A stretch of DNA of 54,350 nt from a virus (taxonomy: Duplodnaviria; Heunggongvirae; Uroviricota; Caudoviricetes). The stretch lies in the IMG/VR virus record IMGVR_UViG_2909257012_000004, one strand, 5' to 3'. Numbering within the stretch: position 1 is the stretch's first letter; each line of letters starts with the position of its first letter. Below, piece after piece: positions 10,949 through 11,508 of this stretch. Under the pieces are notes generated by a model. The model did not search any database. It was not told the origin of the DNA and saw only the letters and a program-made list of their open reading frames with translations. A program made the translations under genes and the position numbers.

Positions 10949-11128
10949 TTTTATGGATCACCTTTCTGATTGATTTCATATTGGCGAGGTGACGTGAGTT
11001 AAGTAGAATGGCTGCGGGTGCTTGAGGCTATCTGTCTCAGGCATGAACACTGAAAGGCAGATAGAGAAAAGCCCCAGTTAACATTTCGCGTCCTGCAAGA
11101 CGCTTAACATTAATCTGAGGCCCAATCT

Positions 11129-11341
11129 ATGTCTCACAAATGTAGGTTAGCCTCTTACGTGCCGAAAGGCAAGGGGAAGCAGGCTATGAAGCAGCAAAAG
11201 GCGATGTTAATCGCCCTGATCGTCATCTGTTTAACCGTCATAGTGACGGCACTGGTAACGAGGAAAGACCTCTGCGAGGTACGACTCCGAACCGGCCAGA
11301 CGGAGGTCGCTGTCTTCACAGCTTACGAACCTGAGGAGTAA
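11129..11341 (+). CDS. mok: Mok-like reading frame (N-terminally extended frame of hok)
   Basis: 70-aa ORF in-frame with and containing hok, as in chromosomal mok/hok loci. Confidence 0.6.
   Translation: MSHKCRLASYVPKGKGKQAMKQQKAMLIALIVICLTVIVTALVTRKDLCEVRLRTGQTEVAVFTAYEPEE
11186..11341 (+). CDS. hok: Hok-family type I toxin (51 aa, HokD/RelF-like)
   Basis: MKQQKAMLIALIVICLTVIVTALVTRKDLCEVRLRTGQTEVAVFTAYEPEE is near-identical to recalled HokD. Confidence 0.85.
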   Translation: MKQQKAMLIALIVICLTVIVTALVTRKDLCEVRLRTGQTEVAVFTAYEPEE

Positions 11342-11409
11342 GAGACCCGGCGGGGGAGAAATCCCTCGCCACCTCTGATGTGTCAGGCATCCTCAACGCA
11401 CCCGCACTT

Positions 11410-11438
11410 AACCCGGTTCGGCGGGTTTTGTTTTTTTC
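11410..11438 (+). terminator. Rho-independent terminator downstream of hok
   Basis: Hairpin AACCCG-GTTCGG-CGGGTT followed by TTGTTTTTTT. Confidence 0.65.
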
Positions 11439-11508
11439 TGGCATTCTGGTTTACAATTCGCACGTCAGCCTGAACACCTGACACCTGCTGCGCCAGCAGA
11501 GAAAACAG

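What the first reader, a model, noticed from the sequence alone, without database searches (positions are those of the whole stretch)
11040..11440. Intact mok/hok type I toxin locus inside the prophage
The Hok reading frame is full length, its in-frame Mok extension is intact, and a terminator follows. The antisense Sok RNA should overlap the mok start region but I could not place its promoter confidently. The locus may stabilise the prophage or act in abortive infection.
Basis: partly seen in the sequence, partly recalled or inferred. Interest (0 to 1): 0.45.

Follow-up and report, generated by a model that had tools for sequence, protein, structure and literature searches.

The report
Intact prophage hok/mok/sok toxin-antitoxin cassette
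This is a complete, ordinary copy of the well-known hok/sok RNA-controlled toxin cassette, carried by an E. coli lambdoid prophage and identical to copies in hundreds of sequenced E. coli genomes, so it is real but not new.

Summary
Window 10981-11437 holds a complete hok/mok/sok type I toxin-antitoxin cassette. Hok is 51 aa (11186-11341; Pfam HOK_GEF, E 6e-23). Mok is 70 aa, in frame (11129-11341). The mRNA leader matches Rfam RF01794 at 120.5 bits against a gathering score of 59. An intrinsic terminator lies at 11410-11437.

This -10 is identical to the sokW -10 that was inactivated experimentally (PMC8621323). By homology with annotated K-12 sokC, Sok runs about 11137 to 11061 (77 nt).

The mRNA 5' end (tac) pairs with a 3'-UTR box (fbi, 11391-11403). 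This pairing sits at a constant position in all 33 intact relatives examined, and in a 24-locus alignment it covaries (U-A in 13, C-G in 10).

The DNA is 100% identical in many complete E. coli genomes (445 records are at least 99% identical), where it is annotated hokD. K-12 hokD is the truncated version, with homology starting only at window 11172. The 92.6%-identical hokW-sokW locus has already been characterised.

Verdict: already known, low interest. The biological role (lysis aid on induction, prophage addiction, phage exclusion) is untested here.

The parts
10981..11009 (+). hok mRNA promoter (-35 TTGGCG, 17-nt spacer, -10 TAGAAT)
   Evidence: It is the only sigma-70-like site found on the plus strand in 10850-11550. 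The -10 ends 7 nt before position 1 of the Rfam leader model (11016). TAGAAT/TATAAT aligns in hokW and hokC. It rests on consensus and homology only; no transcript was mapped.
11016..11437 (+). Full-length hok mRNA (about 422 nt)
   Evidence: The 5' end is set by position 1 of the Rfam model and the 3' end by the terminator T-run. The window's minimum-energy fold is 80.9% paired across 24 related loci, against 38-46% in the slid controls.
11016..11027 (+). tac element (GGGUGCUUGAGG), the 5'-terminal box
   Evidence: It pairs with 11391-11403 in the full-length minimum-energy fold with pair probability 0.97-1.0. It pairs alternatively with 11069-11075 after 3' trimming. In the 24-locus alignment, tac positions 2-3 and 5-9 are invariant, position 1 differs only in the R1-type sequence, and position 4 varies U/C. 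Positions 10-12 also vary.
11018..11044 (+). Predicted 5' metastable hairpin (tac paired with the sequence immediately downstream)
   Evidence: It appears as GUGCUUGAGGC/GCCUCAGGCAU in one truncated fold (end 11385). It corresponds to the transient structure described for R1 hok mRNA (PMC9841398). Prediction only.
11069..11077 (+). ucb / anti-SD box (AAGCCCCAG)
   Evidence: It can pair with the mok SD region 11115-11121 (closed form, 0.5 kcal/mol above the minimum-energy fold, pair probability 0.36) or with tac (open form). The AGCCCC core is invariant in 23 of 24 loci.
11061..11137 (-). Predicted Sok antisense RNA (about 77 nt): single-stranded 5' leader, long terminator hairpin, U-rich tail
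   Evidence: The ends come from alignment with the annotated K-12 sokC. The 3' tail GGGGCUUUUCUCUAU is identical. The fold has an unpaired 5' leader of 7 nt (12 nt in K-12 sokC), a weak outer helix, and a long GC-rich hairpin (-31.1 kcal/mol). It covers the mok SD and mok codons 1-3. The hairpin carries an insertion of about 18-20 nt shared with hokW. No transcript was mapped.
11144..11172 (-). Sok promoter (-35 TTGCCT 11172..11167, 17-nt spacer, -10 TAACCT 11149..11144)
   Evidence: The -10 and its surroundings are identical to sokW, where replacing plus-strand TAGGTTA with CCGGCTC (primers YO-421/422) removed antitoxin function. In the 24 loci the -35 reads TTG(A)CC throughout and the -10 reads TAnnCT in 20; three hokC-type loci and the Pantoea locus depart from the -10 pattern. 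The generic promoter scan missed it because it matches only 7 of 12 consensus positions.
11117..11154 (+). Sok-target hairpin: mok SD (GAGG 11117-11120) paired with dcb (CCUC 11151-11154); the mok AUG is in the stem and the loop is CUCACAA
   Evidence: It forms in the full-length minimum-energy fold, the 11400, 11395 and 11390 truncations, and the Rfam consensus structure. The GAGGC/GCCUC stem is 100% paired and invariant in 24 loci (helix 5). The loop contains a YUNR-type tetranucleotide (CUCA), which is weak evidence on its own.
11129..11341 (+). mok reading frame (70 aa), in frame with hok and sharing its stop
   Evidence: An in-frame ATG exactly 57 nt upstream of hok recurs in Escherichia, Photorhabdus, Pantoea and Citrobacter loci and in 115 of 115 complete phage copies.
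11173..11177 (+). hok Shine-Dalgarno region (GGGGA; most relatives have GGAGA)
   Evidence: Alignment. G at 11175 is an allele-specific change, found in 1 of 24 diverse loci. It is present in 48 viral contigs, against at least 120 with GGAG.
11186..11341 (+). hok toxin gene (51 aa)
   Evidence: Pfam HOK_GEF 80.6 bits and PHROG 251 'MokW-like host killing', E 1e-32. It differs by one residue from K-12 HokD (I34L) and by 6 residues from the HokW-type protein of Stx2 converting phage I.
11391..11403 (+). fbi element (CCUCAACGCACCC) in the 3' UTR
   Evidence: It is complementary to tac with a 1-nt bulge; the duplex is -21.5 kcal/mol and 10 of 2000 shuffled UTRs do as well. An equivalent box lies 45-56 nt after the hok stop in all 33 intact relatives.
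11410..11437 (+). Intrinsic terminator of hok mRNA
   Evidence: A 6-bp GC-rich stem plus TTGTTTTTTT. It is conserved in K-12 hokD.

Best explanation
The region is a complete hok/mok/sok type I toxin-antitoxin cassette, carried as an accessory gene ('moron') in a Qin-like lambdoid prophage integrated next to ompW in E. coli. It is the intact form of the locus that survives in K-12 as the 5'-truncated hokD (relF).

The mechanism is inferred from the R1 hok/sok and Sp5 hokW/sokW systems; each sequence element it needs was verified here. A plus-strand promoter makes a roughly 422-nt hok mRNA. Its 5' end (tac) is locked to a 3'-UTR box (fbi), which keeps the mok ribosome-binding site closed. Slow 3' trimming removes fbi, and tac then pairs with ucb instead. 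This opens the mok start and presents the Sok-target hairpin. A short antisense RNA, Sok (about 77 nt, minus strand, from TTGCCT-17-TAACCT), binds across the mok SD and start, blocks mok translation and hence the coupled hok translation, and marks the duplex for RNase III.

When Sok supply stops while the stable hok mRNA persists, Hok is made, inserts into the inner membrane and depolarises or kills the cell. Candidate triggers are prophage induction, prophage loss, or host transcription shut-off by an infecting phage. Going by the closest tested homologue, I consider help with lysis and phage release on induction the most likely role. Addiction and phage exclusion are not excluded.
For: Shown from the sequence:
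- The Hok/Gef peptide and the in-frame mok are present.
- The full-length Rfam leader match scores 120.5 bits, tied for highest among all loci scanned and above the R1-type prototype at 87.2.
- The tac-fbi pairing has pair probability about 1.0. It sits at a constant position in 33 intact relatives. In the 24-locus alignment one pair reads U-A in 13 sequences and C-G in 10.
- The whole-mRNA fold is 80.9% paired against 38-46% in the slid controls, and 41 pairs show a change on both sides against 15-27.
- The tac/ucb stem is 98% paired and invariant. Tac position 4, which is bulged in tac/ucb but paired in tac-fbi, varies and covaries with fbi.
- The Sok promoter and Sok ends are placed by identity to the mutagenised sokW -10 and the annotated sokC.
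- Every scored element is intact in 114 of 115 complete phage-borne copies, and in 40 of the 41 that carry this allele.
- The DNA is 100% identical in many complete E. coli genomes, and 445 records are at least 99% identical.

From the literature:
- HokW is toxic, sokW neutralises it, and HokW appears on induction. Deleting the locus halves phage release.
- The R1 conformational model is summarised in PMC9841398.
Against: - No transcript, toxicity or processing data exist for this exact allele.
- Thermodynamic folding does not resolve the closed-to-open switch. In the full-length RNA the canonical ucb/mok-SD pairing has probability 0.36, against 0.61 for an alternative in which ucb pairs with the hok SD. 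After trimming, the tac/ucb stem is the minimum-energy fold but has only about 0.15 probability. The R1 control also fails to give its known open form.
- The Sok promoter matches the sigma-70 consensus poorly (7 of 12), and the generic scan missed it.
- The hok SD carries an unusual GGAG-to-GGGG change that might weaken translation or strengthen its sequestration.
- The phage copies were selected by an exact 32-nt match, so their intactness partly reflects recent common ancestry.
Confidence: 0.9

Rival explanations
1. The locus is an inactive relic, like the chromosomal hok loci of E. coli K-12. It looks complete but no longer expresses toxin, for example because the GGGG variant of the hok SD or the I34L change silences it.
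For: The K-12-type hokD copies lack the whole leader, and the K-12-type hokC copy lacks fbi, so decay is common in this family. G at 11175 is found in only 1 of 24 diverse loci, and it lets ucb pair with the hok SD in the minimum-energy fold.
Against: There is no IS, frameshift, deletion or lost box. All the elements that are missing from decayed copies are present here. The allele occurs in 48 viral contigs, with every scored element intact in 40 of the 41 complete copies. I34L is conservative. GGGGA can still pair with the anti-SD through one G-U pair (inference).
Confidence: 0.07
2. It is a K-12-type 'hokD': a toxin gene without its own antisense control, as the RefSeq annotation (hokD CDS only, no mok or sok) would suggest.
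For: RefSeq names the CDS hokD and annotates neither mok nor sok at the identical locus.
Against: Homology with K-12 hokD starts only at window 11172, which is 14 nt before the hok ATG. Upstream of that point K-12 has relE. The window instead has the hok promoter, tac, ucb, the Sok gene and promoter, and the mok start. The Rfam leader model hits the window but not K-12 hokD or the K-12-like copies L008 and L009.
Confidence: 0.02
3. On biological role: the cassette mainly acts as an addiction module that kills cells which lose the prophage (post-segregational-type killing), stabilising the prophage.
For: This is the classical role of R1 hok/sok on plasmids (summarised). The cassette is fully self-contained and spreads among different phage backbones and positions: in the nin region here, and between the late genes and att in the 933W-type phage.
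Against: No experiment shows this for an integrated prophage. Deleting hokW-sokW had no growth effect in lysogens, and the reported phenotype concerned induction rather than stability.
Confidence: 0.25
4. On biological role: the cassette mainly acts as abortive-infection defence. Host transcription shut-off by an incoming lytic phage depletes Sok and releases Hok.
For: R1 hok/sok on a high-copy plasmid reduced T4 plating efficiency by 42% and plaque size by about 85% (as quoted).
Against: Hok has no match in PADLOC-DB. The T4 effect was modest and came from a multicopy plasmid. It has not been tested for single-copy prophage loci.
Confidence: 0.15

Closest known systems
hokW-sokW of Stx2 prophage Sp5 / 933W-type phages (Takada et al. 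2021, PMC8621323)
   Same: Both are prophage-borne. The DNA is about 92.6% identical over the locus. The Sok -35 and -10 hexamers and the spacer are identical. Both share the insertion of about 18-20 nt in the Sok terminator hairpin, the same tac and fbi boxes, and the same mok position. Hok is 51 aa in both.
   Different: The Hok C-terminus differs (TAYEPEE versus VDYESEK), and residue 34 is L here versus I. Five of the 13 positions in the region aligned to the Sok 5' end (the first mok codons) differ, so cross-neutralisation is uncertain. The 3' terminator differs. The position in the phage differs: here between the replication genes/QueH and DUF968-RusA-Q, and in the 933W-type phage between the late region and att. 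The hok SD is GGGG here and GGAG there.
hokD (relF) of the Qin cryptic prophage, E. coli K-12
   Same: It sits in the same prophage module (upstream of the ydfU/DUF968 and Q genes). The DNA is 98% identical from window 11172 to 11435, covering hok, fbi and the terminator. The Hok proteins differ by one residue.
   Different: K-12 has relBE in place of everything upstream of 11172, so it has no hok promoter, tac, ucb, Sok gene or promoter, or mok start, and no Rfam leader hit. The window carries the intact form. The next gene downstream also differs: rem in K-12 versus an unrelated 90-aa PHROG 1212 protein here.
hok/sok (parB) of plasmid R1
   Same: Same architecture and same named elements: tac, ucb, mok SD/dcb hairpin, mok, hok, fbi, and an antisense Sok with a TTGnnn-17-TAnnCT promoter. 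The Rfam model hits both.
   Different: Hok sequences are far more divergent: the paper reports 44% identity between HokW and R1 Hok. Sok is 51% identical in alignment. R1 has an extra insertion in the first leader hairpin and lacks the Sok-hairpin insertion. It is plasmid-borne and has a demonstrated plasmid-maintenance role.
hokC/mokC/sokC (gef) of E. coli K-12
   Same: mok is in frame with hok and sokC is annotated on the opposite strand across the mok start. The Sok 3' tail is identical and the tac box is the same.
   Different: K-12 hokC has IS186 just downstream and lacks fbi. Sok is 59 nt there against about 77 nt here. It is a core-chromosome location rather than a prophage.

Membership tests
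hok/sok type I toxin-antitoxin family (Pfam PF01848 Hok/Gef; Rfam RF01794) | Small (about 50 aa) Hok/Gef membrane peptide | tested here: met
   The 51-aa ORF at 11186-11341 scores 80.6 bits on HOK_GEF against a cut-off of 22, over profile positions 1-42 of 42. It also matches PHROG 251, E 1e-32. The NCBIfam Hok subfamily models score below their strict cut-offs, at 49 bits against 73, so no NCBIfam model assigns it to a specific Hok paralogue.
hok/sok type I toxin-antitoxin family (Pfam PF01848 Hok/Gef; Rfam RF01794) | Overlapping mok reading frame with its own SD, starting upstream of hok, through which hok translation is coupled | tested here: met
   ATG at 11129, in frame, 57 nt upstream of hok, preceded by GAGG at 11117-11120. 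The same -57 ATG occurs across genera and in 115 of 115 phage copies. The translational coupling itself was not tested.
hok/sok type I toxin-antitoxin family (Pfam PF01848 Hok/Gef; Rfam RF01794) | Conserved hok mRNA 5' leader structure | tested here: met
   Rfam RF01794 matches 11016-11191 over the full model, at 120.5 bits against a gathering score of 59. The model is written in the hok-mRNA sense and its last three positions align with the hok AUG, so the plus-strand hit marks the leader, not the Sok strand.
hok/sok type I toxin-antitoxin family (Pfam PF01848 Hok/Gef; Rfam RF01794) | cis-encoded antisense Sok RNA with its own promoter, complementary to the mok translation-initiation region | tested here: met
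   This is met at sequence level only. The promoter is TTGCCT-17-TAACCT at 11172..11144 on the minus strand, with a -10 identical to the functionally mutated sokW -10. The Sok ends and fold match annotated sokC. Expression and instability of the RNA cannot be tested with these tools.
hok/sok type I toxin-antitoxin family (Pfam PF01848 Hok/Gef; Rfam RF01794) | Long-range tac (5' end) / fbi (3' UTR) pairing that closes the full-length mRNA | tested here: met
   12 bp with one bulge (11016-11027 with 11391-11403), pair probability 0.97-1.0. The duplex is -21.5 kcal/mol and 10 of 2000 shuffles do as well. It is positionally conserved in 33 intact relatives, and one pair covaries in the 24-locus alignment.
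hok/sok type I toxin-antitoxin family (Pfam PF01848 Hok/Gef; Rfam RF01794) | Refolding after 3' trimming: ucb leaves the mok SD and pairs with tac, and the mok SD/dcb target hairpin forms | tested here: inconclusive
   All the complementarities exist and are invariant or conserved. The minimum-energy fold of RNAs ending at 11395 or earlier shows the tac/ucb stem. However, ensemble probabilities are mixed (0.15 open against 0.77 closed), and the R1 control does not reproduce its known open form either. Structure probing is needed.
hok/sok type I toxin-antitoxin family (Pfam PF01848 Hok/Gef; Rfam RF01794) | Hok toxicity, neutralisation by Sok, RNase III cleavage of the duplex, and differential RNA stability | not testable with these tools
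   Known only for homologues: hokW-sokW and R1 hok/sok.

The most novel reading that the evidence does not exclude
Here the cassette sits inside, and is co-oriented with, the early-right operon (immunity region, replication genes, QueH, hok, DUF968, RusA, Q). On induction, read-through transcription from the early promoter would therefore run head-on into the convergent Sok promoter and could silence it by transcriptional interference. This would couple Hok release to prophage induction. It would also offer one possible answer to a question left open for hokW-sokW, namely why Sok RNA vanishes after induction. In addition, the lineage-specific GGGG hok SD, which is linked to an upstream QueH gene in 37 of 41 copies against 4 of 73 for GGAG, might be a tuned and attenuated allele.
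Probability: 0.12. Interest if true: 0.4.

Novelty: already known. Interest (0 to 1): 0.08.

Why it matters
It matters little as a discovery. The family has been textbook material since the 1980s, a 92.6%-identical prophage locus has been characterised experimentally, and this exact sequence is in many complete E. coli genomes. The useful by-products are annotational. RefSeq labels the locus 'hokD' and annotates neither mok nor Sok, although the locus is the complete ancestral-type cassette rather than the truncated K-12 hokD. The Sok gene and promoter coordinates given here could be transferred to those genomes. Because the allele is common in the O25b:H4 lineage and related clinical E. coli, it would also be a convenient natural system for testing what prophage hok/sok loci do.

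Tried and rejected
1. The generic sigma-70 scan found no minus-strand promoter. I did not take that as absence, because homology with sokW and sokC places a weak-consensus promoter there.
2. My first recollection, that ucb pairs with dcb in the full-length RNA, was wrong. PMC9841398 states that ucb sequesters the mok SD. I re-tested this with constrained folding.
3. My first coordinates for the Sok -10 and -35 were off by one. I corrected them against the ruler.
4. Minimum-energy and partition-function folding could not demonstrate the closed-to-open switch, for either the window or the R1 control. I do not use them as evidence for or against it.
5. I assumed the downstream 90-aa ORF was a Rem homologue because of the synteny with K-12. 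The sequences are unrelated.
6. PADLOC gave no hit for Hok or Mok, so the locus is not in that catalogue of defence systems.
7. The NCBIfam Hok models score below their cut-offs, so the 'hokD' name has no NCBIfam model support in this scan.
8. The tac/ucb stem shows no covariation because it is invariant. That is uninformative rather than negative.
9. I did not use the large protein-homology searches or structure prediction. The answer did not depend on them.

Full report
**What is there**

The ORF list shows a 51-aa ORF at 11186-11341 and a 70-aa ORF from ATG 11129 that shares its frame and stop. Both match Pfam HOK_GEF far above threshold, at 80.6 and 79.3 bits against a cut-off of 22. PHROGs files the protein under 'MokW-like host killing'.

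Rfam RF01794 ('sok') matches 11016-11191 over its whole length, at 120.5 bits against a gathering score of 59, E 5.6e-27. That model is written in the sense of the hok mRNA and its last three positions align with the hok AUG. The plus-strand hit therefore marks the hok leader, not the strand of Sok.

A sigma-70-like promoter (TTGGCG-17-TAGAAT, 10981-11009) ends 7 nt before model position 1. A hairpin plus T-run at 11410-11437 closes the unit. The only correction is that the unit starts at 10981 (promoter) or 11016 (mRNA), not 11040.

**Where it comes from**

The 461-bp region is 100% identical in many complete E. coli genomes (every one of the 25 listed rows), 445 records are at least 99% identical, and some relative is present in 4937 of 5426 genomes. 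The CDS is annotated hokD.

In an O25b:H4 genome the locus lies in a lambdoid prophage next to ompW, between the replication genes/QueH and DUF968-RusA-Q. Neither mok nor sok is annotated there. Window bases 1-17047 are 99.99% identical to that prophage, starting in the integrase gene.

Phage records carry the same locus under the names MokW, HokD, gef or 'host killer'.

**Relation to K-12 hokD**

K-12 hokD sits in the same module of the Qin prophage, followed by ydfU/DUF968 and Q, but with relBE directly upstream. Homology with the window (98%) starts at 11172, only 14 nt before the hok ATG, and runs through fbi and the terminator. K-12 therefore lacks the hok promoter, tac, ucb, the Sok gene and promoter, and the mok start.

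The Rfam leader model finds nothing in K-12 hokD or in the K-12-like copies L008 and L009. It does hit 35 of the 36 other loci scanned. The window carries the intact version of this locus.

**Placing Sok**

Three lines of evidence do so.

1. K-12 sokC is annotated on the strand opposite mokC, and its 5' end lies 8 nt inside mok. Transferred by alignment, this gives a Sok 5' end at window 11137 and a 3' end near 11061. The 3' tail GGGGCUUUUCUCUAU is identical. The fold has an unpaired 5' leader and a GC-rich terminator hairpin (-31.1 kcal/mol).
2. Upstream on the minus strand lie TTGCCT (11172..11167), a 17-nt spacer and TAACCT (11149..11144).
3. Takada et al. (PMC8621323) abolished sokW function with primers YO-421/422, which replace plus-strand TAGGTTA by CCGGCTC. 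That is exactly this -10 region, and its sequence is identical in the window.

Across 24 diverse loci the -35 reads TTG(A)CC throughout. The -10 reads TAnnCT in 20 of them; three hokC-type loci and the Pantoea locus depart from it. The most variable stretch is the Sok 5' leader, which overlaps the first mok codons, as expected for a specificity determinant. The promoter is a weak consensus match, which is why the generic scan missed it.

**mRNA structure**

The minimum-energy fold of 11016-11437 (-168.5 kcal/mol) pairs the 5' end (tac, 11016-11027) with 11391-11403 (fbi). The pair probability is 0.97-1.0. The isolated duplex is -21.5 kcal/mol, and 10 of 2000 shuffled UTRs match that.

I collected 47 related loci from species-level genomes: Escherichia, Shigella, Kluyvera, Citrobacter, Pantoea, Photorhabdus and Erwinia. 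In all 33 intact relatives, a box complementary to the 5' end lies 45-56 nt after the hok stop. It is maintained by compensatory changes: GGGUGC/GCACCC versus GGGCGC/GCGCCC, and GAGG/CCUC versus GAGA/UCUC versus GAAG/CUUC. It is missing from the K-12-type hokC copy (in K-12, IS186 lies just downstream of hokC) and from a disrupted Shigella copy.

On a 24-sequence full-length alignment, the window's fold is 80.9% paired against 38-46% when the partners are slid. It has 41 pairs with changes on both sides, against 15-27 in the slid controls. One tac-fbi pair reads U-A in 13 sequences and C-G in 10.

The alternative tac/ucb stem of the processed RNA is 98% paired but invariant, so it offers no covariation. 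Tac position 4 is bulged in tac/ucb and paired in tac-fbi, and it varies and covaries with fbi.

**Limits of the folding evidence**

According to the R1 model as summarised by Le Rhun et al. (PMC9841398), ucb sequesters the mok SD in the full-length RNA. After 3' trimming, tac/ucb and mok-SD/dcb stems form.

In the window the canonical ucb/mok-SD pairing (11071-11077 with 11115-11121) is only 0.5 kcal/mol above the minimum-energy fold, with probability 0.36. The minimum-energy alternative pairs ucb CCCC with the hok SD GGGG at 11173-11176. After trimming to 11395 or earlier, the minimum-energy fold shows tac/ucb, but the ensemble gives it only about 0.15. The R1-type control also fails to give its experimentally known open form.

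So the elements are all present and conserved, but the switch itself is not demonstrated computationally.

**An allele-specific detail**

G at 11175 makes the hok SD GGGG instead of the GGAG seen in 23 of 24 diverse loci. The variant is in 48 viral contigs, against at least 120 with GGAG. It is linked to an upstream QueH gene: 37 of 41 copies have QueH upstream, against 4 of 73 for GGAG. The downstream genes are shared by both.

Among 115 complete phage-borne copies, the hok ORF, the mok ATG at -57, the Sok promoter boxes, tac and tac-fbi are all intact in 114, and in 40 of the 41 GGGG copies. Those copies were selected by an exact 32-nt match, so this partly reflects recent shared ancestry.

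**Mechanism and role**

The mechanism I commit to is the canonical one:
- a stable, self-locked hok mRNA;
- activation by 3' trimming;
- repression by the unstable antisense Sok across the mok initiation region, with RNase III cleavage of the duplex;
- Hok synthesis and membrane damage once Sok supply stops.

The sequence elements are shown. The kinetics, processing and toxicity are inferred from R1 hok/sok and from hokW-sokW. In hokW-sokW, HokW is toxic, sokW neutralises it, sokW disappears and HokW accumulates on RecA-dependent induction, and deleting the locus halves phage release.

The role in this prophage is untested. Help with lysis on induction has the only direct support from a close homologue. 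Prophage addiction and exclusion of lytic phages (T4 with multicopy R1 hok/sok) remain possible. Hok is not in PADLOC.

**Novelty**

This is already known. It is a well-characterised family, a near-identical characterised prophage homologue exists, and the exact sequence is widespread and annotated, if incompletely. Interest is low.

The least ordinary reading still open is this. The cassette lies inside the early-right operon and is co-oriented with it, so induction-driven read-through may silence the convergent Sok promoter. That is speculative, and it is weakened by the different position of hokW in 933W-type phages.

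Noticed in passing
window 4537-4588 (-): DicF antisense sRNA: full-length Rfam match at 76.7 bits, next to dicB/ydfC-type genes in the identical annotated genome. The prophage is a Qin-like element with the cell-division inhibitor module intact.
   Followed up: no
window 16661-16850 (+): STnc100 sRNA: full-length Rfam match at 132.4 bits, lying downstream of two tRNA genes (15712-15784 and 15888-15961) and upstream of the lysis genes.
   Followed up: no
window 10262-10948 (+): A prophage-borne epoxyqueuosine reductase QueH (Pfam E 1e-65) lies immediately upstream of hok. It accompanies the GGGG hok-SD allele in 37 of 41 phage contigs but the GGAG allele in only 4 of 73. Why a lambdoid phage carries QueH was not explored.
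   Followed up: partly
window 17047-17811: An insertion of about 765 bp relative to the otherwise 99.99%-identical O25b:H4 prophage encodes IS1 InsA and InsB (Pfam). By position it interrupts the region of the iraM-like gene annotated in the reference.
   Followed up: partly
window 11383-11562 (-): A 59-aa ORF lies antisense to the hok terminator and to the start of the next gene. It matches PHROG 2947 (E 1.6e-44). RefSeq annotates it as 'hypothetical protein' and some phage records as 'mobile element protein'. It may be a propagated annotation artefact rather than a gene.
   Followed up: no
window 11175 (+): This allele has GGGG in the hok Shine-Dalgarno where 23 of 24 diverse relatives have GGAG. 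The change turns Mok residue E16 into G. It also lets ucb CCCC pair with the hok SD in the predicted full-length fold.
   Followed up: partly
L004 (K-12 Qin) 4025-4289, equivalent to window 11172-11435: K-12 hokD keeps an intact fbi box and terminator although its pairing partner tac has been replaced by relBE. The fbi box is therefore an orphan regulatory element.
   Followed up: partly
L020, L024 (GTDB contigs) and hit H4: Near-identical copies of this E. coli hok locus appear on contigs of 275 and 431 bp assigned to Acinetobacter idrijaensis and Xanthomonas pisi, and at 98.2% identity in a record named Actinobacillus phage vB_Apl-pPE4. These look like contamination or mis-assigned hosts.
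   Followed up: no
L029 1-140 and L037 1185-1333: Second Rfam sok-leader hits fall within about 0.5-0.7 kb of the first in an Enterobacteriaceae genome and a Photorhabdus genome. This suggests tandem hok/sok cassettes in those genomes.
   Followed up: no
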